Of a DNA stretch of 44,789 bases, positions 306-42,435 are shown one piece after another. The stretch is from sequence record PZ379181.1; one strand, 5' to 3'. A program made the position numbers and the translations under genes. A model generated the notes under the pieces. It was given only the letters and a program-made list of their open reading frames with translations, did no database searches and was not told the origin of the DNA. Each line of letters opens with the position of its first letter. Positions within the stretch are counted from its first letter, which is position 1. This DNA comes from a phage.

Positions 306-956
306 TTAGAATGTGTCGATTTCTTGAGATTGTACTTCAACTTTTTCTTCTTGAACAGACTTTTGTGCAACCTGTTTAGGTTTTGCAGGATTGAAGCCGT
401 TAGTTGCATTAGCCTGAATTTCTGCCTTACGCTCAATGATGTGAGGTTCAATCACCAGCCAACCAGCTGAATCAAGAGACTGCTTGGCTTCTTTGTATAC
501 ATCACGCAGGTCATCAAGAGTGTTGCACTTAGCTAAATCTTTCTTAAATGAGTTGATACCCTTAACTGCAAGCTGACCATCATCATCTGCCTGGCTCAAT
601 CCTAATGCCGCTGTAATTGCATAACGGCGAGCATATGTAAGTGATGAGCCGTAACCTTGAGCATCTTGCTTGCTGATTGGGACGATTGTCAGGAAGCTGA
701 CCCACTCTCCAGATTCTGCATGATAGACAGTTGTTTCAACCTTAATTCTAGTTGTGGCTTCATCATCAATCATGCCTTGAAACATGACCAGGCCGCTATC
801 TGCAAGGCCAGGCTCTACAGCCGCCAGTACGTCTTCCAGGGTGGCGTACCTGTTCTTTAGGTGCGAGTTCTGCTTTGACTTTTCAGCCTTTGCAAACTTT
901 GATTTGGCCTCAAATAAAGCCTTCAATACTTGCTTGTTTTGATCTGAAGTTTTCAT
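306..956 (-). CDS. erf: Erf-family single-strand annealing recombinase
   Basis: 216 aa; NRYATLEDVL and GSSLTYARRYAITAALG motifs typical of the ERF family; sits with exonuclease and SSB-like genes. Confidence 0.7.
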   Translation of the reverse strand: MKTSDQNKQVLKALFEAKSKFAKAEKSKQNSHLKNRYATLEDVLAAVEPGLADSGLVMFQGMIDDEATTRIKVETTVYHAESGEWVSFLTIVPISKQDAQGYGSSLTYARRYAITAALGLSQADDDGQLAVKGINSFKKDLAKCNTLDDLRDVYKEAKQSLDSAGWLVIEPHIIERKAEIQANATNGFNPAKPKQVAQKSVQEEKVEVQSQEIDTF

Positions 957-34590: not shown

Positions 34591-34959
34591 TTTCCTGAAT
34601 ATCATTAAGAGCAGAATGATGATGACGCAAAACATGATTCCACTCCCAATCCACGGGATTGCAGACGAATCATTGTTGGTGATTTCAATCTTCTCAGCCG
34701 TGATTGTTGATGCCTTGATTGAGTTATCAGAAGTCTTTTTACCGCTTGAACTATCAAGAGTGTCAACCTTAGAGTTCTTCACTTCAGCCTTTGCGCTGGA
34801 ACTTGAATCAACCTTATTAGTTATCCCCACTCCAACCTTGTTATTCTCCGCACCTGCTTGAGCGCTAATCTCTGGCCTACTACCAATCAACCCGGTCAGC
34901 GCAGATGTTGCCGAGCAACCAGAAAGTATAATTACCGCAGCAATTAACGCAGCCTTCAT
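34573..34959 (-). CDS. Unimolecular spanin (outer-membrane lipoprotein with C-terminal TMD)
   Basis: 128 aa; lipobox LSGC near N-terminus, C-terminal hydrophobic IPWIGSGIMFCVIIILLLMIF then RKNKK; same architecture as T1 gp11. Confidence 0.7.
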   Translation of the reverse strand: MKAALIAAVIILSGCSATSALTGLIGSRPEISAQAGAENNKVGVGITNKVDSSSSAKAEVKNSKVDTLDSSSGKKTSDNSIKASTITAEKIEITNNDSSAIPWIGSGIMFCVIIILLLMIFRKNKKAP

Positions 34960-35441
34960 TTACCCACCCCACTTAAGCATAATTTAATCTCCTCGTTGCG
35001 CCTGTTGACGAGGCCTTTAACAACTTTTAGCTTGCCATTTACTCGAGCTTTATTCCAGGAGGCGAGAGCATTACAACCCTCTTCAATCTTGCCCTGATTA
35101 ATCAGCCTTACTGCCGTTGACTTCCTCATTGCAGCGCCACCAACGTTGTAGCTAAAGCTGATTAACGCCGCCCTTGTCTGTGGAGAGATTGGGTAAGTTA
35201 CTGCATCCTGCACATACTTTCCATGAATCTGGATGTGTTTCTCCAGTAAGTTCCTGCACTCCCTTGCACTGTACTTTTTACCCCACACCACATCAGGACC
35301 AGTGATACCTGAACAAACCGTAGGAATGCCTGCAATGTCCATGTAAGGCTTGTATTCCACACCTTCTACTAGCTCAATAATCGGCGCTGCGATGTATATT
35401 GCCACAGCCGTCGCTGCACTAATTACCAGCTTCTGCTTCAT
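34956..35441 (-). CDS. Endolysin (GH24 lysozyme, possible SAR signal-anchor)
   Basis: 161 aa; E-x8-D-x5-T catalytic spacing (ELVEG...YMDIAG...PTVCSGIT) like T4 lysozyme; N-terminal Ala-rich hydrophobic segment. Confidence 0.75.
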   Translation of the reverse strand: MKQKLVISAATAVAIYIAAPIIELVEGVEYKPYMDIAGIPTVCSGITGPDVVWGKKYSARECRNLLEKHIQIHGKYVQDAVTYPISPQTRAALISFSYNVGGAAMRKSTAVRLINQGKIEEGCNALASWNKARVNGKLKVVKGLVNRRNEEIKLCLSGVGK

Positions 35442-35656
35442 TACTTACTCCTAATATTGATAGCTGTCTTTAAATCACCCGACTCTAGAGCCTTCCTGAT
35501 TGCCTGACTGTCCTTAAACTTCCAATATGCTCCCCACAGCCCGAAAACAACAAGAGCCACAAGGCTGATTATTGCTATAGTCATTTGACCAGTTGCGGCA
35601 CCAGTTACAGCGGCTCCGCCGGTTGATGCCGTGGCGGCGTTAATTACTTCCCTCAT
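35441..35656 (-). CDS. Holin
   Basis: Start at ATG 35656 with AAAGGTG RBS (longer form from 35704 possible); single TMD MTIAIISLVALVVFGLWGAYW; immediately upstream of endolysin. Confidence 0.6.
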   Translation of the reverse strand: MREVINAATASTGGAAVTGAATGQMTIAIISLVALVVFGLWGAYWKFKDSQAIRKALESGDLKTAINIRSK

Positions 35657-35730
35657 GTGATCACCTTTAAATCCTAATTTGTCAATACATAGTGCAAATA
35701 TCATACATTAGGCGGTGGCAAATTATAAGC

Positions 35731-35758
35731 AAAAAAGGGGAGCCAAAAGGCCCCCCGC
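35731..35758 (-). terminator. Hairpin plus T-run upstream of lysis cassette
   Basis: GGGGGGCCTTTTGGCTCCCC then TTTTTT on minus strand. Confidence 0.55.
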
Positions 35759-35782: not shown

Positions 35783-35956
35783 TTAATCTGCGATAATAAA
35801 TTCCACCAAAGAGCCATCAATCGGCGCAAGGATGTGAGTCATATCGTCACCGTAAACTTTGTAGTAACCGTCACCTAGAGACTCTGCGCTGTACGGCTGG
35901 TTTTCGGTGAACGGCAGTGTCTTTGAGTTGTTTTTAACGCAGTATAATTTAGTCAT
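35783..35956 (-). CDS. hypothetical small protein (57 aa)
   Basis: Hand-translated; operator module and GAGGA RBS upstream. Confidence 0.35.
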   Translation of the reverse strand: MTKLYCVKNNSKTLPFTENQPYSAESLGDGYYKVYGDDMTHILAPIDGSLVEFIIAD

Positions 35957-36014
35957 TTTTGAATCCTCTGTTGTTTTCGATGTAGTAATTATGCCGGATT
36001 ACTCCGGCGATTGT

Positions 36015-36568
36015 TTAGCAATTCGTGCTATTTATTACGTGCATTACCAAAGCAGAGGTTCCATCAATATCACCATCTACAACATGAACGTCAATTTCTC
36101 TTGCGCAGACACCGCGAATGTAGGAGCGGCTATCTCCATCAAAAGTATAGCCAGGCCTAAAAAGTCTAATCAAAGTAACTTCAACCCCTGAATCAATGAG
36201 AGTATTAATCTCGCTAGCGAAGCCACCATCAGCACAGATATAGCAACCATCACCAAGTGATTGCGCTAGCCTTTTACCGAAAACATCATCACCAAAGACT
36301 GGCTTCATAACTGACTCACTAATCCAAATCATAAATTCACGAACCGTCATTCCACCAAGAAATTCATGTGGTGATTCTTTGTACTCTCGGTCATCGTAAT
36401 TCTTAATAAATTCATCAAACTCATCGCTTGATAGTATTCCTTTTGCAACATTAAACATTGGTGACTTGAATGAAACCTTATCCTTGCAAATTCCAAGATT
36501 AACAATGATATCTGCAACTGTATCTTTTCCAGCACCAGGGGTGCATTAAGGATGATTAACTTTTTCAT
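36015..36568 (-). CDS. dNMP kinase-like P-loop kinase, frameshifted
   Basis: N-terminus MKKLIILNAP; P-loop PGAGKDT and the rest of the protein are in the -1 frame after a 4-nt run (plus-strand GGGG 36538-36541); resembles T4 gp1 dNMP kinase. Confidence 0.55.
36016..36030 (-). promoter_or_regulatory. TAGCA-N5-TGCTA operator/promoter module
   Basis: TAGCAattcgTGCTA; contains the kinase stop codon; hairpin GCCGGAGTAATCCGGC and CATAAT at +23. Confidence 0.55.
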
Positions 36569-36569
36569 T

Positions 36570-37043
36570 TTATTCTCCGTGAGATTCGCAGTCTTTTGGT
36601 AATTCTTTATATTCACAAACTGACATTACAGTATATCCGCAATTCCTTAGGTGACTGATAACATTAGGATTATCCTCAAAGATTATCACACTTGCTTTGT
36701 CACCATTACACAAATCATTTAGCCACATCTCTTTAATGATATAGTCATTTCTGTTATCCAATCTACTCCTCATATATATTCCATCATAATTAATATTATT
36801 ATACTGAAGCCATTCAAGCGTCATACATTCGACTTCGTCACTTCTTGAAGTCATGATGTAAACTGGCGATAACTCAGCTAACGCATTCATCATGTTTATC
36901 ATTGGAATTATCGGTGAATCTCCAGAACAGGCTCTATTGTAATCACTCCAACTTGAAGTCAAGTGAAGGTCACTAGATGGTAAGAGGTGGCTTCTATGTT
37001 CATTGTTAGCAATAGTTCCATCAATATCAAACACGTAAATCAT
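36570..37043 (-). CDS. HAD-family phosphatase
   Basis: 157 aa; N-terminal FDIDGT motif (DxDGT); ends 1 nt before kinase start. Confidence 0.65.
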   Translation of the reverse strand: MIYVFDIDGTIANNEHRSHLLPSSDLHLTSSWSDYNRACSGDSPIIPMINMMNALAELSPVYIMTSRSDEVECMTLEWLQYNNINYDGIYMRSRLDNRNDYIIKEMWLNDLCNGDKASVIIFEDNPNVISHLRNCGYTVMSVCEYKELPKDCESHGE

Positions 37044-37101
37044 TACAACTCCTCATCTCGTTATCGTTTATTCATTTTGCCTCAATCCTTTGAGGCTTTA
37101 T

Positions 37102-37116
37102 TAACAAAAAATGCTA
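37102..37116 (-). promoter_or_regulatory. Operator/promoter module (TAACA variant)
   Basis: TAACAaaaaaTGCTA; hairpin GCCTCAAAGGATTGAGGC; RBS GAGGAG before ATG 37043. Confidence 0.45.
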
Positions 37117-38250
37117 TTACTTAAACATTTCAGGTCGGCAAGTGAATCGACCAACTTCACCGTACTCTGAGCTATAGATAATTACTGAGGCCTGACGATA
37201 AGAGCGATACCCTCCGTTTGCGCTGTACGCATCTTTAGCACCCAACTGACCGTGTGACTCATCAATTCCAAGATTACCCTCAGTAACCGTCTGATGATGA
37301 TAATGGCCACTATGTGTATAAACGTATTCAGCATTACCAAATGCTTTGCGATGGTCGCGCGCAAGAGTTGAAAGACGAGTGTCAGGCTTTCGCAATTCAT
37401 GACCATGGCAGTAACCCAACAATGTTTTACCAAACTCCGTCACGTGAAGAGCGGCTGGTGAGGCATCAACATTTACACGAGGCTCATCCATGTAGAAGGC
37501 AGCCATTGCAGCTCGAAGCCAAATCATCCCAGAAAGGTCGTGGTTGCCTGGTATAATCTGAACCTCAACCTCTTTATGCTTGTCAAGCATCTTACTGACG
37601 GCGCGGCGAGTTGCACGAACAGCTACGTAGACAAGTTTATGATAACGGCTATCTTGATCAAGTACGTGCTTGCTGGTTGGAGTTACAGCTTCCATTCCAT
37701 CCGAGTGAAGGAAGTCTCCACCAATCAGTAATACGGCTTTTGATGAATTCGGGGCCTTAGCAACTGCATAATCAAAGTATTGGTTAAGCACTCGCTCTGC
37801 AATTTCTGTACTGTAGTTCTCCCCACACTCTGCATGGTGAGCCATTGCGCCAATATGCATATCAAACACGGGGTAGAGGCTCAAGGTGTCCTCATAGCTT
37901 GATTCACTGAGTGGTTTCGGAGTCTCTCGAGGGAGCTCATCTGTAAGCGCCTGAACAATCTGCTGAAGCATCTCTTCTTGTTTCTGTTCGTCGATGGAAG
38001 TTTTAACCCAGCGAAGCTTCTCATTACCATCCGCATCAATCATTGTTGAAGTGCCTTTAACAAGATAGCCATCAGGAACTAGCTTCTTGATGCCTTCATT
38101 ACCATGCCCAACCCCACTCTTAGCCAACTTGCTACGACGAAGCTCAACGTTTCGAATGTTCATTCCGTACTTCTCTGCAATCGCCTTGTTAGTCAGGCCG
38201 TTTTTCAGTTCTTCGATCAACTGCTCGGTGGTAATTTTTGCTGCTGCCAT
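37117..38250 (-). CDS. Metallophosphoesterase with N-terminal HTH domain
   Basis: 377 aa; DMH, GDFLHSDG, GNHD, GHEL, HSGHYHH motifs (calcineurin-like); N-terminal TNKAIAEKYGMNIRNVELRR is HTH-like. Confidence 0.65.
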   Translation of the reverse strand: MAAAKITTEQLIEELKNGLTNKAIAEKYGMNIRNVELRRSKLAKSGVGHGNEGIKKLVPDGYLVKGTSTMIDADGNEKLRWVKTSIDEQKQEEMLQQIVQALTDELPRETPKPLSESSYEDTLSLYPVFDMHIGAMAHHAECGENYSTEIAERVLNQYFDYAVAKAPNSSKAVLLIGGDFLHSDGMEAVTPTSKHVLDQDSRYHKLVYVAVRATRRAVSKMLDKHKEVEVQIIPGNHDLSGMIWLRAAMAAFYMDEPRVNVDASPAALHVTEFGKTLLGYCHGHELRKPDTRLSTLARDHRKAFGNAEYVYTHSGHYHHQTVTEGNLGIDESHGQLGAKDAYSANGGYRSYRQASVIIYSSEYGEVGRFTCRPEMFK

Positions 38251-38331
38251 TTTTAAGTCCTTAGTTCATCACGATAAAATATAAGATAGTAAAGCTAACC
38301 AGTGGTGCTAATGCTACTAGGGCTACATATT

Positions 38332-38583
38332 TCATTCAACCTCTTTCAACCAAAAGTCCAACAAAGTAGCACAAATTGCTAATTTCTTGTCCAGGTCAGT
38401 CATGCACAGGTTTCCACATGATGGTGAATAATAAATCTGTACCCACTTGCCATCTTTAGTCTTCGCATTAACATCTACGTAGTCAGGAGGAAACCAGTCA
38501 GAAATAGGGATTGCTCTAAACTTATTCCCACTACTACCATGTACTAAGTCATAATGCCCAGGCTGAAAATCTAATCCCAACAT
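38332..38583 (-). CDS. hypothetical protein (83 aa)
   Basis: ATG start. Confidence 0.4.
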   Translation of the reverse strand: MLGLDFQPGHYDLVHGSSGNKFRAIPISDWFPPDYVDVNAKTKDGKWVQIYYSPSCGNLCMTDLDKKLAICATLLDFWLKEVE

Positions 38584-38585
38584 AA

Positions 38586-38828
38586 CTAAACCTTCGTTAT
38601 CTTAAATTTGAATCCCTGTTCTTTCAGGAACTCATTCGTGTTTATCGTGACGCCAGGTTTAACACTGACATACTTGCGCGGCCTTTCATCCATGTACGTA
38701 AACTTACCGTTGAAGATGACACTGATATCTTTTATATCGAAGTACTTAGATATCATCTTAATGTCGTCCTGAATGCCAGCCTCTGCGCAGTGGGCCCAGA
38801 CTGCGGCCCGTCCTGTTTCAACTATCAT
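38586..38828 (-). CDS. hypothetical protein (80 aa)
   Basis: ATG start. Confidence 0.4.
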   Translation of the reverse strand: MIVETGRAAVWAHCAEAGIQDDIKMISKYFDIKDISVIFNGKFTYMDERPRKYVSVKPGVTINTNEFLKEQGFKFKITKV

Positions 38829-38950
38829 AAGCCGTATGCCAATTTCAGGTATTCACGCGCACACATCCAATGCTCTTCTGATTGAAACTCAACTGCAAAC
38901 TCAGTAAAATGTTGGGCAATCCTAAACATCTCCTTATCTACGATTTTCAT
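38825..38950 (-). CDS. hypothetical small protein (41 aa)
   Basis: Hand-translated; overlaps both neighbours by 1-4 nt. Confidence 0.3.
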   Translation of the reverse strand: MKIVDKEMFRIAQHFTEFAVEFQSEEHWMCAREYLKLAYGL

Positions 38951-39171
38951 TATTCAAAATCCTCCGGGCAATCTTTTTTCATTTCCGCAATGTCTGCAAC
39001 CATGCGTTCGCGCCATGTTTCGATGTCCGTTCGCAAGTAATCTTCTTCAAAGCTGTAATCAAGGCATCCTGCTAAAAACCATGAGTCACCTTTATAACCA
39101 GCATTGTGTAGCTCCTGAACCCCCATTGCCTGAAATAGTTCCCATTGTTTGTCAAATGTTAAAATTGCCAT
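38950..39171 (-). CDS. hypothetical protein (73 aa)
   Basis: ATG start. Confidence 0.4.
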   Translation of the reverse strand: MAILTFDKQWELFQAMGVQELHNAGYKGDSWFLAGCLDYSFEEDYLRTDIETWRERMVADIAEMKKDCPEDFE

Positions 39172-39176
39172 TACTC

Positions 39177-39371
39177 TTATACCTCATCAAATTTTTCGCC
39201 GAATTCGTTTTTAACAGTTTCCAGATCATATCTGTAAGTTGGGCTAACTTCGAATGCATATGTGCAGTCTTCAATGTCAACCAAAACATAACCATCTTCA
39301 GTTACTTGCATCTCGTAGATGTAGCCAGTCTTGCGTGATTCGTAGAATTTACCAGTATAGATAGTAGCCAT
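39177..39371 (-). CDS. hypothetical protein (64 aa)
   Basis: ATG start; operator module upstream. Confidence 0.4.
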   Translation of the reverse strand: MATIYTGKFYESRKTGYIYEMQVTEDGYVLVDIEDCTYAFEVSPTYRYDLETVKNEFGEKFDEV

Positions 39372-39437
39372 TTTCTTTCTCTCTTTGTGTGTTTCGTTTC
39401 GATGAGTTGATAATACACCAACTCACCAATTCGTCTT

Positions 39438-39452
39438 TAGCAATTCGTGCTA
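39438..39452 (-). promoter_or_regulatory. TAGCA-N5-TGCTA operator/promoter module
   Basis: TAGCAattcgTGCTA; contains the VRR-NUC gene stop codon. Confidence 0.5.
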
Positions 39453-39869
39453 TTTTCTTATCATCTCTGCGAATGCCGCAAGAAAACCCTCTCTTCCATA
39501 AGCCACCGCTGCGAAACCGCCTGATTCCCTTACGCTTTTTAGGAATGACTTTTGCTCATTGCTAACTGGGCTTGCTTGCGTTTTACCAGCCCTCTTTAAC
39601 TCTATGGCGCCAAATGGATAACCGCCACGCAATGACTCAGGTATCAGAAATAAGCAGTCTGACACACCTTTGAGAAGCCCCTTGGCTTGGTCTTTTCTTG
39701 CTTGACCAATGCTCTTTTTATTTTCGTTAATCGTGTGCCAGTAAACAATCTGCGGATAGTTGTATTTCACCCAATCAGAGCAGAAGATTTGTTCATCGTC
39801 TTCCTTTGGGCATGACTTCACCGGTCCGCCATAGAACTCGAGGTAATCACCTTTGTCTGTGATTTTCAT
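39450..39869 (-). CDS. VRR-NUC domain nuclease
   Basis: 139 aa; GVSDCLFLIP...GAIELKRAG matches the PD-(D/E)XK VRR-NUC pattern; directly downstream of helicase. Confidence 0.6.
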   Translation of the reverse strand: MKITDKGDYLEFYGGPVKSCPKEDDEQIFCSDWVKYNYPQIVYWHTINENKKSIGQARKDQAKGLLKGVSDCLFLIPESLRGGYPFGAIELKRAGKTQASPVSNEQKSFLKSVRESGGFAAVAYGREGFLAAFAEMIRK

Positions 39870-39870
39870 A

Positions 39871-41865
39871 TCAATCCTCCATCGTAAATGATTTGTTGGC
39901 GATAATATCTTGCGACTTCTGATTCTTGCGGTGCGTAATCCTTAGCGGCGCACGGAAAAGATGTGCATTTGTCATAATCATTTTAGCATTACGCAATCTG
40001 CCAATCCTAAAAGCCTCAGTCCTGTTCTCGATGTGAGTTGAGCAAAACGCCTTCCATTTGACAGAACAAACACGATGGTCTGACTCCGGGAAGAATGTTT
40101 CATAAGCTCGGAACTTATCTCCACTATGAGCCATTACCTCATATGAAGCAACGATCCCTGACTGGTTCTTTGTTAACCCAATCTTGAAGTCATAAACTCG
40201 CAACCAGTCCCCCTTACGATACATTTTTCCTGATAACTTAGCATTCGGGTCTATGAGCATCTCACCACAGCATCTGCAATTCTTAGCTGCAATATCATTC
40301 TTCTCACCGCATCCTTTCTTAATGATAGCTTTGGTCTGTGGGTCCGCTATATCTTCACACAGTCTAAACTGAAAGAAGTGCTCACAGCGCTTCCAGTCAA
40401 TTACGTTATTGCAGCGCCTGGCTAATTGAGAGTTCACATAAGAGCATGCCGGACAGATTCTTGGCTTATCACCACGCTTTCTTGCTGACCTAAATTTCTG
40501 GTCTTGTACCTCTTCTATAATTGGGTCGAAGTAAAGTTCAGCCATATCATCAAGCGTTCCAGCAAAATCAAGAACAACATGGTCATCTTTTACCATTCCA
40601 GCTTCTTTGTGCTTCTTCTTAAGGATACGCATACCACGACCAAGCAACTGAATGAGTAGAGTAATGCTACCAACCTTCCTCAGGATAATGCTTGTATCCC
40701 ACGGGGGGCAGTTTACGCCAGTTGTGAGGCAACCAATCTGAAATATGAACTTATATTCTCCGTTGGCTGCCTTCTCAAGTATCTCTCTACGCTTCTTCTC
40801 ACCAGTGGAGTTGGTAACTATCGCCCAAGTAACACCTTCTGGAAGTGCGGCTGCCGCCTCCTCGCAATGCTGTTTGCCAGCGCAAGTTACCAATGCAGCA
40901 TTCCTTGTTTCCATAAACTTAGCAGCAAATCCCATTATCTTTTGTGTCATCGTTTGGTTTTCGTGAATCTTTGCAGCCATCGCATCCATTTCTTTCTTGC
41001 TGAAGTCCTTAACCCCATCACTTCCATCAGGAGTGAACTCACTAAGGTCGTAGCCCAAATCACCAACTTCACCGTAGACAGTAGGAACAACGAACCCCAA
41101 GTCAACAAGGTAGCTGGTTGGCACTTGCATTACAGTTTTGCGCCAGAATCCACGGACATTTGGGTTACTAACTACAATGTGGTCGTTGTTACGGTACGGG
41201 CTGCCAGTCAAACCGAAGATGCGTAGTTCGCGACCATACTTCTCTTTGCAGCGTCTCTTCATCTCAGTAATGATTAGCGTGTACTGCGCACGACCAGTTC
41301 CGAGCAATCCGGTATTCACTCCATCCTTGAAAACCATCTCACCCTTCTTCGTGCTCATCTGCTCGAATGTTTCCTCGTTCTCTTCAGCTTCTACGATATC
41401 CATATGGTCAACCATATGACATTCATCTATCGCAATAACGGCAGGAACATAGTCACCAAGGCCCTTAAACAAGCCGTTAGCAGCCGTGCCCTCACTAGCC
41501 ACTATGGTTGGGTAGTAAACTGATTTAACGTTAAGGCCAGCGCAATAGACGCTATTACGGATGCCGAAGTTACGAAGCTCTTCAGCGTTCTGGCTGATAA
41601 TTTCTGACTGGCGAGAAAGCACCATGTAAGGAAGCCCAAGCTGTTCCATGCGCTTTCCAATCATGGCAAGAATAATTGTCTTACCAGCAGATACAGACAG
41701 GTCTGCGATGAATGGGGCCTCGTACTTTCCAATAGCCTTCCCAATTGCATCAAATGTCACACACTGGAATGGGTAAGGAGTGATTTCTCCAAACTGGTAA
41801 TCTCTCTGAATCTGCTTAATCTTCTCTTGATCGAAGTTGGCTACTAAGCGCTCTACTGGAAGCAT
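39871..41865 (-). CDS. Superfamily 2 ATP-dependent DNA helicase
   Basis: 664 aa; Walker A SAGKT, DECH box (AIDECHMV); Cys-rich C-terminal region. Confidence 0.8.
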   Translation of the reverse strand: MLPVERLVANFDQEKIKQIQRDYQFGEITPYPFQCVTFDAIGKAIGKYEAPFIADLSVSAGKTIILAMIGKRMEQLGLPYMVLSRQSEIISQNAEELRNFGIRNSVYCAGLNVKSVYYPTIVASEGTAANGLFKGLGDYVPAVIAIDECHMVDHMDIVEAEENEETFEQMSTKKGEMVFKDGVNTGLLGTGRAQYTLIITEMKRRCKEKYGRELRIFGLTGSPYRNNDHIVVSNPNVRGFWRKTVMQVPTSYLVDLGFVVPTVYGEVGDLGYDLSEFTPDGSDGVKDFSKKEMDAMAAKIHENQTMTQKIMGFAAKFMETRNAALVTCAGKQHCEEAAAALPEGVTWAIVTNSTGEKKRREILEKAANGEYKFIFQIGCLTTGVNCPPWDTSIILRKVGSITLLIQLLGRGMRILKKKHKEAGMVKDDHVVLDFAGTLDDMAELYFDPIIEEVQDQKFRSARKRGDKPRICPACSYVNSQLARRCNNVIDWKRCEHFFQFRLCEDIADPQTKAIIKKGCGEKNDIAAKNCRCCGEMLIDPNAKLSGKMYRKGDWLRVYDFKIGLTKNQSGIVASYEVMAHSGDKFRAYETFFPESDHRVCSVKWKAFCSTHIENRTEAFRIGRLRNAKMIMTNAHLFRAPLRITHRKNQKSQDIIANKSFTMED

Positions 41866-41961: not shown

Positions 41962-42435
41962 ATGTGTGAAATTGACAAGCGAACTATCAACGGCAATAAC
42001 GGAACCATCCGCACGCAAGACAAGAAACAGCGCAAACGACCGTCAGGCTACTACGTATTGAAAGATGAAGTAAAGGCTGGGCTAAGAGCTCGTCTGGAGA
42101 TGGTTCTTGACTTCTACGGCACGAAGGCCAATATCGCCAAGCAGTTAAATGTATCTCACCAGACTGTAGAACAATGGTTTGATCGCGGTATGATTTCGGC
42201 TCGAGGCGCCCAGCGAGCACATAATGCGTACAAGAGAAATAAGGGAGGGTTCCGAGCTACTTTCTGCCGACCAGACCTGCAATTTGACGGTAACGGTAAG
42301 CCTCTGACGCTTAGATGCAAGAAGCGCCACATGCTACGCGTGGTTACTGAGGCTGAACTAGCAACAAAGCCACCTTGTCGACCGTGGCGCAAGAATAAGA
42401 TTGCCAACGAAGCCGCACGAAAAGCTAAAGAGTAA
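41962..42435 (+). CDS. HTH DNA-binding protein (Cro/YdaS-like), candidate regulator
   Basis: 157 aa; TKANIAKQLNVSHQTVEQWFDRG helix-turn-helix; basic C-terminus. Confidence 0.55.
   Translation: MCEIDKRTINGNNGTIRTQDKKQRKRPSGYYVLKDEVKAGLRARLEMVLDFYGTKANIAKQLNVSHQTVEQWFDRGMISARGAQRAHNAYKRNKGGFRATFCRPDLQFDGNGKPLTLRCKKRHMLRVVTEAELATKPPCRPWRKNKIANEAARKAKE

What the first reader, a model, noticed from the sequence alone, without database searches (positions are those of the whole stretch)
37117..38250. Metallophosphoesterase fused to an N-terminal HTH domain
A 377-aa protein carries all calcineurin-like phosphoesterase metal-binding motifs behind an HTH-like N-terminal domain. The fusion is unusual and could be a DNA-targeted nuclease or phosphatase, a second candidate operator-binding regulator, or a cyclic-nucleotide phosphodiesterase acting against host signalling-based defence.
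Basis: inference. Interest (0 to 1): 0.45.

Follow-up and report, generated by a model that had tools for sequence, protein, structure and literature searches.

The report
HTH-tethered phage metallophosphoesterase, probable DNA nuclease
This gene is the T1-like-phage version of a very common, already catalogued phage protein that joins a small DNA-binding domain to a metal-dependent enzyme most like DNA-cutting repair nucleases; it is ordinary as a sequence, though its exact job has never been measured.

Summary
Window 37117..38250 (-) encodes a 377-aa protein with an N-terminal three-helix HTH and all five calcineurin-like metallophosphoesterase (MPE) motifs.

The claim that the fusion is unusual is wrong. 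The window is a T1-like siphovirus (Drexlerviridae), and the gene is the orthologue of T1 gene 16, Rtp gp61 and Bas01_0050. It matches PHROG 704 ("DNA repair exonuclease") end to end. Homologues occur in 2,046 phage records and 4,697 50%-identity clusters, and most members tested carry the same N-terminal module.

The metal ligands are invariant across 130 sequences down to about 30% identity. The nearest folds are DNA exonucleases (PolD DP1, Mre11, SbcD). The two non-ligand histidines needed for DNA cleavage in P. putida MPE are conserved here (H182, H237). There is no capping domain and no Rad50/SbcC partner.

A 2026 preprint reports that the 65%-identical orthologue Bas01_0050 is toxic in E. 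coli, and that missense or frameshift mutations in it let the phage escape the DRT7/UG10 defence.

Best reading: an HTH-tethered, metal-dependent DNA nuclease that is dispensable in the lab, possibly the T1-family host-DNA-degrading enzyme. A cyclic-nucleotide phosphodiesterase or a pure regulator is poorly supported. No biochemistry exists for this family.

The parts
37117..38250 (-). Complete CDS, 377 aa plus stop (about 42 kDa): HTH-MPE protein, orthologue of T1 gene 16, Rtp gp61 and Bas01_0050
   Evidence: ORF listing. PHROG 704 E 4.9e-150 over the full length. 65% identity, full length and syntenic with bas01_0050. T1 ST16 is also 377 aa.
38258..38262 (-). Shine-Dalgarno-like AAGGA, 7 nt upstream of the ATG
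   Evidence: Sequence read directly.
38101..38250 (-). N-terminal three-helix HTH (residues 1-50, pI 9.9), LuxR/GerE/resolvase-like
38071..38100 (-). Flexible linker (residues 51-60)
   Evidence: pLDDT drops to 67-68 in both models.
37993..38070 (-). Conserved beta-hairpin (residues 61-86; K65-G66-x-S68-T69, G75, W81-V-K83), the most conserved element family-wide, also present in homologues that lack the HTH
   Evidence: AF2 strands 62-71 and 77-86. W81 in 126/130 and K83 in 114/130. 44% median identity in distant representatives against 37% for the core. Retained in the HTH-less Ruegeria homologue.
37936..37992 (-). Connecting amphipathic helix (residues 87-105), poorly conserved in sequence
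   Evidence: AF2 helix 88-103. 21-26% median identity.
37120..37896 (-). Calcineurin-like metallophosphoesterase core (residues 119-377), with no separate capping domain
37855..37863 (-). Motif I, D130-M-H132 (metal ligands)
   Evidence: Invariant in 130/130. Coordinates checked.
37699..37719 (-). Motif II, G178-D179-F-L-H182-S-D184, the GDxxH form shared with Mre11/SbcD and P. putida MPE
   Evidence: D179 in 130/130, H182 in 127/130. Aligned to TmMre11 GDLLHS. P. putida MPE His81 (Asp78+3) is essential for DNA cleavage.
37537..37548 (-). Motif III, G235-N236-H237-D238 (H237 is the putative general acid)
   Evidence: N236 and H237 in 130/130. The equivalent His113 of P. putida MPE is essential for nuclease activity.
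37399..37407 (-). Motif IV, H282-G-H
   Evidence: H282 in 130/130.
37297..37308 (-). Motif V, G315-H316-Y-H318
   Evidence: G315 and H318 invariant; H316 in 126/130, the rest D.
36570..37043 (-). Downstream neighbour: HAD-type PNKP 3'-phosphatase (157 aa), a recurrent but facultative partner gene
   Evidence: Pfam HAD_PNKP E 8.6e-15. Directly downstream of the MPE in 18 of 80 viral loci across 4 of 24 lineages, including Kagunavirus. Located elsewhere in T1 and not adjacent in Bas01.
36015..36569 (-). Next gene: P-loop (Walker A) 184-aa family, T1 ST62-like, probably the kinase half of a split PNKP; frameshifted in this window
   Evidence: Translations in three frames. CCCC in the window against CCCCC in phage ES. 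Adjacent in 16 loci across 3 lineages.
39450..41865 (-). Upstream genes of the same leftward gene block: ATP-dependent helicase (39871..41865) and VRR-NUC nuclease (39450..39869)
   Evidence: Pfam Helicase_C and VRR_NUC. Upstream of the MPE in 21 loci across 6 lineages. Same order in T1, ACG-M12 and Bas01.
35737..35756 (-). Terminator-like hairpin that probably ends the leftward gene block containing the MPE gene
   Evidence: 8-bp stem with 7 GC pairs followed by a T-run. No promoter-like site lies immediately upstream of the MPE gene.

Best explanation
The gene encodes a two-metal (probably Mn2+) phosphodiesterase that acts on DNA. It is a stripped-down Mre11/SbcD/DP1-like nuclease core with no capping domain and no Rad50/SbcC partner. 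It appears to be brought to its substrate by a basic LuxR/resolvase-type HTH on a flexible linker, followed by a family-specific beta-hairpin.

It is made from the phage's DNA-metabolism gene block (helicase, VRR-NUC, small ORFs, MPE), just upstream of the lysis genes. It damages or processes DNA in the infected cell. It is dispensable for plaque formation in the laboratory, toxic on its own, and its activity exposes the phage to the DRT7/UG10 defence.

The most likely biological role is degradation or end-processing of host DNA. T1 is known to degrade the host chromosome, and T5's metallophosphatase A1 offers a functional parallel. The nearby PNKP phosphatase and kinase, where present, may heal 3'-phosphate/5'-OH ends.

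**Shown:** the domain architecture, invariance of the active-site residues, fold relationships, orthology to Bas01_0050, and the gene neighbourhood.

**Taken from the literature on an orthologue:** toxicity, dispensability and the DRT7 escape phenotype.

**Inferred:** DNA as the substrate, the HTH as a DNA tether, and the host-DNA role.
For: **Active site under selection.** Seven metal-ligand positions are invariant in 130 sequences spanning 29-93% identity.

**Nuclease-type features.**
- Motif II is GDxxH (H182 in 127/130) and motif III is GNH (H237 in 130/130). These correspond to P. putida MPE His81 and His113, which are essential for ssDNA cleavage but not for bis-pNPP hydrolysis (PMC7826289).
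- The family profile's best PDB hit is T. maritima Mre11/SbcD, aligned through motifs I-II (E 0.009).

**DNA tether.**
- The N-terminus has an HTH fold and pI 9.9.
- 84 of 100 held-out representatives hit the HTH model, and at least one member has a Cys-rich module in its place.

**Genetics of the orthologue.** Bas01_0050 is 65% identical and syntenic. It is toxic in E. coli, and missense or frameshift mutants escape DRT7 (bioRxiv 10.64898/2026.02.16.706125).

**Context.**
- The gene lies in the helicase/VRR-NUC block in the window, T1, ACG-M12 and Bas01.
- The window encodes no DNA polymerase and no SbcC.

**Analogues.**
- T5 A1, a predicted metallophosphatase, is necessary and sufficient for host DNA degradation, is toxic, and is an escape locus for Retron-Ec67 and Vesta.
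- Mycobacteriophage A10ZJ24 Gp48, an MPE, degrades host DNA in vitro and in vivo.
- T1 degrades the host chromosome (references cited in PMC11447400).
Against: - No member of this family has been assayed biochemically.
- The profile-to-PDB E-values are weak, at 0.009 or worse.
- No homology to T5 A1 beyond a motif-III patch (hhalign probability 16%). A1 is a different PHROG. The mycobacteriophage enzyme has no N-terminal extension (D10 is in motif I).
- Toxicity does not identify the substrate.
- The T1 host-degradation genes defined by classical genetics have not been mapped to this ORF in anything I could read.
- The MPE-PNKP adjacency is absent from most lineages, being found in 18 of 80 loci and 4 of 24 lineages.
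Confidence: 0.6

Rival explanations
1. It is a phage-DNA end-processing nuclease rather than a host-DNA degrader. In this reading it is an SbcD-like enzyme that trims ends, hairpins or flaps of replicating or recombining T1-type concatemers, working with RecE/Erf, the helicase and VRR-NUC. Toxicity would then be a side effect of overexpression.
For: - It is co-linear with helicase and VRR-NUC in 21 loci across 6 lineages.
- The window also encodes a RecE-like PDDEXK exonuclease and Erf.
- The closest folds are repair or proofreading exonucleases.
- Dispensability in the lab fits an accessory recombination function.
Against: - There is no SbcC/Rad50 and no capping domain.
- The helicase/VRR-NUC linkage was found in only 6 of 24 lineages.
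- Strong toxicity on its own, and the fact that its loss lets the phage escape DRT7, both suggest a substantial effect on cellular DNA.
- The HTH is more conserved than the core among unrelated enterobacterial phages. This fits a host-side target somewhat better than a phage-specific one.
Confidence: 0.22
2. It is an end-healing phosphoesterase (2',3'-cyclic phosphodiesterase or 3'-phosphatase) that forms an RNA or DNA repair cassette with the adjacent HAD PNKP phosphatase and P-loop kinase, for example to repair tRNAs or DNA cut by host defence nucleases. Bacterial Pnkp uses a metallophosphoesterase domain in this way.
For: - The trio MPE, HAD_PNKP, P-loop is directly adjacent and on the same strand in the window, in Kagunavirus (as an island inside tail genes) and in two other lineages.
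- Bacterial Pnkp healing domains are binuclear metallophosphoesterases (established knowledge, not tested here).
Against: - Adjacency is found in only 4 of 24 lineages. T1 keeps the PNK genes about 35 kb away, and in Bas01 they are not adjacent to the MPE.
- A repair enzyme is not expected to be toxic.
- The HAD PNKP domain already supplies a 3'-phosphatase.
- The P-loop gene is frameshifted in this window while the MPE is intact.
Confidence: 0.08
3. It is a small-molecule phosphodiesterase that destroys nucleotide second messengers or other nucleotide-derived signals of host defence systems.
For: - The MPE fold is catalytically promiscuous (established knowledge).
Against: - A DNA-binding HTH is conserved family-wide.
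- The protein is toxic in E. coli K-12.
- Losing the gene helps the phage against DRT7 rather than hurting it.
- There are no PADLOC or anti-defence family matches.
- The nuclease-type histidines are conserved.
Confidence: 0.05
4. It is primarily an HTH transcription factor (a second operator-binding regulator), and its enzyme domain is vestigial or serves only as a sensor.
For: - The N-terminus has an HTH fold of the LuxR/GerE class, which is typical of transcription factors.
- Some records name the protein sigma-70 region 4 or wHTH domain-containing.
Against: - All catalytic residues are invariant across the family.
- The HTH is absent from some members, such as the Ruegeria N4-like phage, while the core and hairpin persist.
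- A separate Cro-like regulator is encoded at 41962..42435.
- I did not search for operator-like repeats near the gene.
Confidence: 0.03

Closest known systems
PHROG 704 'DNA repair exonuclease': T1 gene 16 (ST16), Rtp gp61, ACG-M12 gp18, Bas01_0050, bas03_0050
   Same: Same full-length architecture, length (376-378 aa) and synteny. Identity is 65% to Bas01_0050 and 97.6% to phage ES.
   Different: Nothing of substance; this is an orthologue. The family's name is a prediction and no enzymology exists. The only experimental data are toxicity and DRT7 escape for Bas01_0050.
Mre11 / SbcD nuclease subunits
   Different: No capping domain, no C-terminal Rad50-binding region and no Rad50/SbcC gene in the window. 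Has an N-terminal HTH and beta-hairpin instead. Only 12-19% identity.
Archaeal PolD small subunit DP1 (3'-5' proofreading exonuclease)
   Different: No DP2 partner and no polymerase gene of any kind found in the window. 13% identity. The N-terminal domains are not comparable.
Pseudomonas putida MPE / PdeM (ligase-associated ssDNA endonuclease)
Phage T5 A1 (predicted metallophosphatase, host DNA degradation)
   Same: A toxic, phage-encoded MPE-type protein. An escape locus for defence systems (Retron-Ec67, Vesta). A short shared motif-III patch, NHDL..S.WL.
   Different: Not detectably homologous beyond the superfamily (hhalign probability 16%; separate PHROG 1745). 556 aa. Essential in T5, whereas Bas01_0050 frameshift mutants are viable.
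Mycobacteriophage A10ZJ24 Gp48 (cluster A MPE)
   Same: A phage MPE with the five motifs. Toxic, and degrades host genomic DNA in vitro and in vivo.
   Different: No N-terminal HTH or hairpin (motif I begins at D10). Its sequence relationship to PHROG 704 was not tested here.

Membership tests
Calcineurin-like metallophosphoesterase superfamily (PF00149) | Five motifs: DxH, GDxx(D/H), GNH(D/E), H, GHxH | tested here: met
   D130/H132, G178-D179..H182, G235-N236-H237-D238, H282, G315-H316-x-H318, verified by coordinate. Invariant or at least 97% conserved in 130 homologues.
Calcineurin-like metallophosphoesterase superfamily (PF00149) | Beta-sandwich alpha/beta MPE fold | tested here: met
Calcineurin-like metallophosphoesterase superfamily (PF00149) | Score above Pfam's gathering threshold | tested here: not met
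   19.7 bits against a 21.5-bit cut-off. This is a divergent branch of the superfamily. It is a threshold failure for the single sequence, not a missing motif.
PHROG 704 (phage 'DNA repair exonuclease') | Full-length match to the family HMM | tested here: met
   E 4.9e-150, residues 4-376 on profile positions 2-389 of 390. Divergent Vibrio and Ruegeria homologues also fall in PHROG 704.
Mre11/SbcD | MPE motifs with GDxxH (motif II) and GNHD (motif III) | tested here: met
Mre11/SbcD | Capping domain C-terminal to the phosphodiesterase domain | tested here: not met
Mre11/SbcD | Rad50/SbcC SMC-like ATPase partner encoded alongside | tested here: not met
   None among the neighbouring and non-structural ORFs scanned against Pfam. 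The remaining ORFs of 500 aa or more lie in the block syntenic with T1's tape-measure, tail and terminase genes and were not scanned.
Mre11/SbcD | Homodimer; Mn2+-dependent exo- and endonuclease activity | not testable with these tools
   Needs biochemistry or multimer modelling.
PolD DP1 | Obligate DP2 catalytic partner | tested here: not met
   No polymerase gene among the non-structural ORFs scanned.
PolD DP1 | OB-fold domain preceding the phosphodiesterase domain | tested here: inconclusive
   The predicted N-terminus is an HTH plus a beta-hairpin and a helix, with no OB fold apparent. No direct comparison with the DP1 OB domain was made.
PdeM / P. putida MPE clade (TIGR04123) | Equivalog HMM score | tested here: not met
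PdeM / P. putida MPE clade (TIGR04123) | Nuclease-essential His81 and His113 equivalents | tested here: met
   H182 (D179+3) and H237 (N236+1).
LuxR/GerE/resolvase-type HTH DNA-binding domain | Three- to four-helix HTH fold | tested here: met
LuxR/GerE/resolvase-type HTH DNA-binding domain | Significant sequence match to an HTH family | tested here: inconclusive
   The window sequence alone gives HTH_24 E 0.14 and FixJ E 0.015. Homologous N-termini give Sigma70_r4_2 1.8e-10 and GerE 4.6e-9, with HTH_23 in 12 of 47. No single HTH family is shared by all members.
LuxR/GerE/resolvase-type HTH DNA-binding domain | Actual DNA binding, and its specificity | not testable with these tools
   Needs EMSA, ChIP or similar.
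T5 A1 family (PHROG 1745) | Sequence homology to A1 | tested here: not met
   hhalign probability 16%, 19 columns around motif III. A1 hits only PHROG 1745.
Known anti-phage or anti-defence phosphoesterases (PADLOC models; Acb1/Apyc1-type second-messenger nucleases) | Match to a catalogued defence or anti-defence family | tested here: not met
   No PADLOC hit at E up to 1. NCBIfam DS9_1 anti-phage phosphoesterase scores only 14 bits against a 420-bit cut-off. From general knowledge, Acb1 (2H fold) and Apyc1 (MBL fold) have different folds, but no direct comparison was run.

The most novel reading that the evidence does not exclude
The HTH-MPE may be the so far unassigned T1-family nuclease that attacks the host chromosome, making it a non-homologous counterpart of T5 A1.

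In this reading its HTH recognises a host-side target. That would explain why the HTH is better conserved than the catalytic core between unrelated enterobacterial phages, yet unrecognisable in phages of other hosts.

The resulting DNA damage, or disturbance of RecBCD, would be what reverse-transcriptase defences such as DRT7 detect. Where present, the adjacent PNKP phosphatase and kinase would heal the 3'-phosphate/5'-OH ends left by an ambidextrous MPE-type cut.
Probability: 0.25. Interest if true: 0.55.

Novelty: already known. Interest (0 to 1): 0.27.

Why it matters
As a sequence feature it does not matter much. It is one more copy of a gene present in about two thousand sequenced phages and already binned and named.

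The family itself deserves biochemical work, for four reasons:
- It is very widespread, with 4,697 50%-identity clusters.
- It is toxic to the host.
- It has never been assayed.
- It is now linked genetically to sensing by a reverse-transcriptase defence system.

Showing that it is the T1-type host-DNA nuclease would do two things. It would assign a function first described genetically in 1981. It would also give a second, independent example, after T5 A1, of a phage metallophosphoesterase whose activity both exploits the host and exposes the phage to host immunity.

Tried and rejected
1. Sequence search of the single protein against PDB chains found nothing. Only the family profile gave weak hits.

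2. Homology to T5 A1 was rejected: hhalign probability 16% and a different PHROG.

3. The Metis and PUA-Cal-HAD papers, which paired 'phosphoesterase' with 'escape', concern host defence proteins and T-even denA, not this gene.

4. The idea that MPE plus PNKP is an obligatory module was rejected. The genes are adjacent in 18 of 80 loci and 4 of 24 lineages, and separated in T1 and Bas01.

5. The PADLOC scan gave no match.

6. The search for related loci with the 130-sequence alignment failed because no stretch was conserved enough. It was rerun with the 6-sequence alignment.

7. The Pfam scan of the whole of A2 exceeded the size limit. It was replaced by a scan of 47 N-terminal segments.

8. 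I looked for the exact Bas01_0050 escape mutations to map onto the motifs, but they are not in the text or the held supplement.

9. Literature searches for T1p16, rtp61 and 'DNA repair exonuclease' with 'escaper' found no further functional data.

10. Model coordinates are not exposed to scripts. I could not measure how the hairpin or the HTH sits relative to the active site.
Full report
**What is there.** The window carries an ATG-initiated ORF at exactly 37117..38250 on the minus strand, 377 aa. An AAGGA ribosome-binding site lies 7 nt upstream. The surrounding genes identify the window as a T1-like siphovirus: holin, endolysin, helicase, VRR-NUC, primase, Erf and a RecE-like exonuclease. 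Its nearest relatives are Escherichia phages ES and AN_ECEAS, Drexlerviridae, at about 92% nucleotide identity over 36000-40000.

All five calcineurin-like metallophosphoesterase motifs are present:
- Motif I: D130-M-H132
- Motif II: G178-D179-F-L-H182-S-D184
- Motif III: G235-N236-H237-D238
- Motif IV: H282-G-H
- Motif V: G315-H316-Y-H318

In an alignment of 130 homologues from 93% down to about 30% identity, D130, H132, G178, D179, N236, H237, H282, G315 and H318 never change. H182 is kept in 127/130 and H316 in 126/130. AlphaFold2 with this alignment gives a confident model (mean pLDDT 92.7). In order, it shows three N-terminal helices (8-16, 21-28, 32-44), a low-confidence linker (about 45-60), a beta-hairpin (62-86), a helix (88-103), and an MPE core from about residue 119 to the end.

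**The HTH is real, but only on family-level evidence.**
- The window's own sequence is sub-threshold in Pfam. Metallophos scores 19.7 bits against a 21.5-bit cut-off, and HTH_24 has E 0.14.
- When the N-termini of 47 family members are scanned individually, every one of the top 25 families is an HTH family. The best are Sigma70_r4_2 at 1.8e-10 and GerE at 4.6e-9.
- The HTH segment is basic, with pI 9.9.

**The fusion is not unusual.**
- The protein matches PHROG 704, "DNA repair exonuclease", from residue 4 to 376 with E 4.9e-150.
- tblastn finds it in 2,046 phage records, 1,964 of them covering at least 80% of the query. These span Drexlerviridae, Guernseyvirinae (Kagunavirus and Salmonella phages), Klebsiella and Vibrio phages, and N4-like roseophages.
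- An exhaustive search of 1.84 billion cluster representatives returns 4,697 clusters at E up to 1e-3 and 1,042 at E up to 1e-30. Almost all of the best 150 are 360-420 aa.
- Of the 149 representatives examined, 140 have at least 100 residues before motif I. An HTH model trained on some members detects the module in 84 of 100 held-out members.
- Several non-hits still look HTH-like by eye. One has a Cys-rich N-terminus instead, and a few lack the module altogether, as does the Ruegeria N4-like homologue.
- The orthologues are T1 gene 16 (ST16, also 377 aa), Rtp gp61, ACG-M12 gp18 and BASEL bas01_0050 and bas03_0050.

**What kind of enzyme.**
- Foldseek against the PDB puts T. maritima and M. 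jannaschii Mre11 and the PolD DP1 proofreading exonuclease on top.
- As a sequence-level check, the family profile's best PDB hit is T. maritima Mre11/SbcD. It aligns through motifs I and II ("tDyHlGmlAw...GDflHyD" against "SDWHLGVTSW...GDLLHS"), but only at E 0.009.
- The most specific argument is at residue level. In P. putida MPE the metal ligands include Asp78 and Asn112. The non-ligand His81 (Asp78+3) and His113 (Asn112+1) are essential for DNA cleavage yet dispensable for bis-pNPP hydrolysis (PMC7826289). The same positions here are H182 and H237, conserved in 127/130 and 130/130.
- The protein is nevertheless not an Mre11/SbcD. Only 59 residues follow motif V, so there is no capping domain. 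No Rad50/SbcC-like gene was found in the window.
- It is not a PdeM (18 bits against a 150-bit cut-off). It is not related to T5 A1 beyond the superfamily (hhalign probability 16%; different PHROG).

**Experimental evidence on an orthologue.** A 2026 preprint on DRT7/UG10 reverse transcriptases reports three things about phage Bas1 (bioRxiv 10.64898/2026.02.16.706125):
- Spontaneous Bas1 escape mutants carry missense or frameshift mutations in Bas01_0050, "a nucleic acid-targeting phosphoesterase".
- Expression of Bas01_0050 alone is toxic in E. coli.
- Lambda escapers of the same system map to gam, the RecBCD inhibitor.

I confirmed that bas01_0050 (MZ501051 38005..39135) is the syntenic, full-length, 65%-identical orthologue of the window protein. 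So a member of this family is toxic and dispensable for plaque formation, and its loss lets the phage escape a defence system.

Two functional analogues exist:
- T5 A1 is a predicted metallophosphatase. It is necessary and sufficient for host DNA degradation, is toxic, and is an escape locus for Retron-Ec67 and Vesta.
- Mycobacteriophage A10ZJ24 Gp48 is an MPE without an N-terminal extension. It degrades host DNA in vitro and in vivo.

T1 is known to degrade the host chromosome, according to 1981 papers cited in PMC11447400. I found nothing that maps that function to this ORF.

**Context.**
- No promoter-like site lies directly upstream of the gene. The leftward gene block appears to run from the divergent region near 41.9 kb to a strong terminator-like hairpin at 35756-35737.
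- Across 80 viral loci in 24 lineages, these are the recurrent neighbours:

| Neighbour | Position relative to MPE | Loci | Lineages |
|---|---|---|---|
| Endolysin | just downstream | 29 | 11 |
| Helicase plus VRR-NUC | upstream | 21 | 6 |
| HAD_PNKP phosphatase | directly downstream | 18 | 4 |
| P-loop 184-aa gene | downstream | 16 | 3 |

- In Kagunavirus the MPE, HAD and P-loop trio forms a plus-strand island inside minus-strand tail genes. In T1 the PNK genes are about 35 kb away, and in Bas01 they are not adjacent to the MPE. The PNKP link is therefore recurrent but facultative.
- It would make sense if the nuclease, like P. putida MPE, leaves some 3'-phosphate/5'-OH ends. This is inference.

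**Domain-wise conservation.** Median identity to the window protein, by region:

| Comparison group | HTH | Hairpin | MPE core |
|---|---|---|---|
| Drexlerviridae | 82% | 85% | 66% |
| Kagunavirus-type | 58% | 58% | 46% |
| Distant representatives | 14% | 44% | 37% |

The beta-hairpin is the best-conserved element family-wide, and it persists in HTH-less members. The HTH behaves like an exchangeable targeting module. Its target appears to be shared among phages of enterobacteria. That is compatible with a host-side DNA or protein target, but whole-gene transfer between these phage groups could also contribute.

**Verdict.**
DNA-targeted nuclease is the best of the three options. The claim that the fusion is unusual is wrong. 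The regulator and cyclic-nucleotide phosphodiesterase readings lack support.
- My best explanation is an HTH-tethered, two-metal DNA phosphodiesterase of the Mre11/SbcD/DP1 branch. It works without a Rad50-type partner and acts on DNA in the infected cell. I put about 0.6 on the statement as worded. Within it, host-chromosome degradation as the specific role (about 0.25) is not clearly more probable than phage-DNA end processing, scored separately as a rival at 0.22.
- As a genomic feature it is already known and annotated. What remains open is its biochemistry.

Noticed in passing
window 36015..36569 (-), indel at about 36540: The P-loop (Walker A 'ILNxPPGAGKDT') 184-aa gene downstream of the PNKP phosphatase is frameshifted. 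The window has CCCC where phage ES has CCCCC, which leaves only a 147-aa remnant ORF (36015..36458). This is either a homopolymer sequencing error or a real inactivation.
   Followed up: yes
L089 (phage ES, OR466728.1) 763..954 compared with window 36570..37043: The situation is reciprocal in the nearest relative. ES has an intact P-loop gene (555 nt), but its HAD PNKP phosphatase is annotated as only a 63-aa fragment. In the window the phosphatase is intact (157 aa).
   Followed up: partly
window 36015..38250; L008 6001..8170 (Kagunavirus-type contig): The three-gene cassette MPE, HAD_PNKP phosphatase, P-loop protein recurs in unrelated phage lineages. In Kagunavirus it forms a plus-strand island embedded in minus-strand tail genes, which suggests a mobile accessory module. 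In T1, an HNH gene (ST63) lies between the PNK phosphatase and P-loop genes. In ACG-M12, an HNH gene lies between the MPE and the PNK gene.
   Followed up: partly
window 38261..38335 (-): A 24-codon ORF encodes a strongly hydrophobic peptide (MKYVALVALAPLVSFTILYFIVMN). It fills the gap between the upstream 83-aa gene and the MPE gene, and its ATG overlaps the upstream stop codon (TGAATG). It may be a small membrane peptide. It was not compared with other phages.
   Followed up: no
window 38101..38250 compared with 37120..37896: Among enterobacterial phages the HTH is more conserved than the catalytic core: 82% against 66% in Drexlerviridae, and 58% against 46% in Kagunavirus. In distant homologues it is almost unrecognisable (14%). 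This is an unusual conservation gradient for a 'tether' domain.
   Followed up: partly
P0375 (50%-cluster representative), N-terminus: One family member replaces the HTH with a Cys-rich segment (CKSCGEV...YRCKPC) that looks like a zinc ribbon. Others (P0309, P0358) start directly at the beta-hairpin. This points to modular exchange of the N-terminal targeting domain.
   Followed up: no
Phage records PP134917.1 (Pseudomonas phage PsgS01F), MG065688.1 (Campylobacter phage A110b) and others: Records labelled as Pseudomonas or Campylobacter phages carry MPE genes 96.5-96.8% identical to those of E. coli T1-like phages. PsgS01F has exactly the same length (44,679 bp) as Escherichia phage vB_EcoS_UALMA_PCEc3. 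These are probably T1-like laboratory contaminants or mislabelled hosts.
   Followed up: no
window 35783..35956 (-) and 34956..35704 (-): The MPE gene block is followed by a DUF7244 mini-protein and then the lysis cassette. An endolysin lies within about 0.6 kb downstream of the MPE gene in 11 of 24 lineages. This makes it the most widely conserved neighbour, more so than any DNA-metabolism gene.
   Followed up: partly
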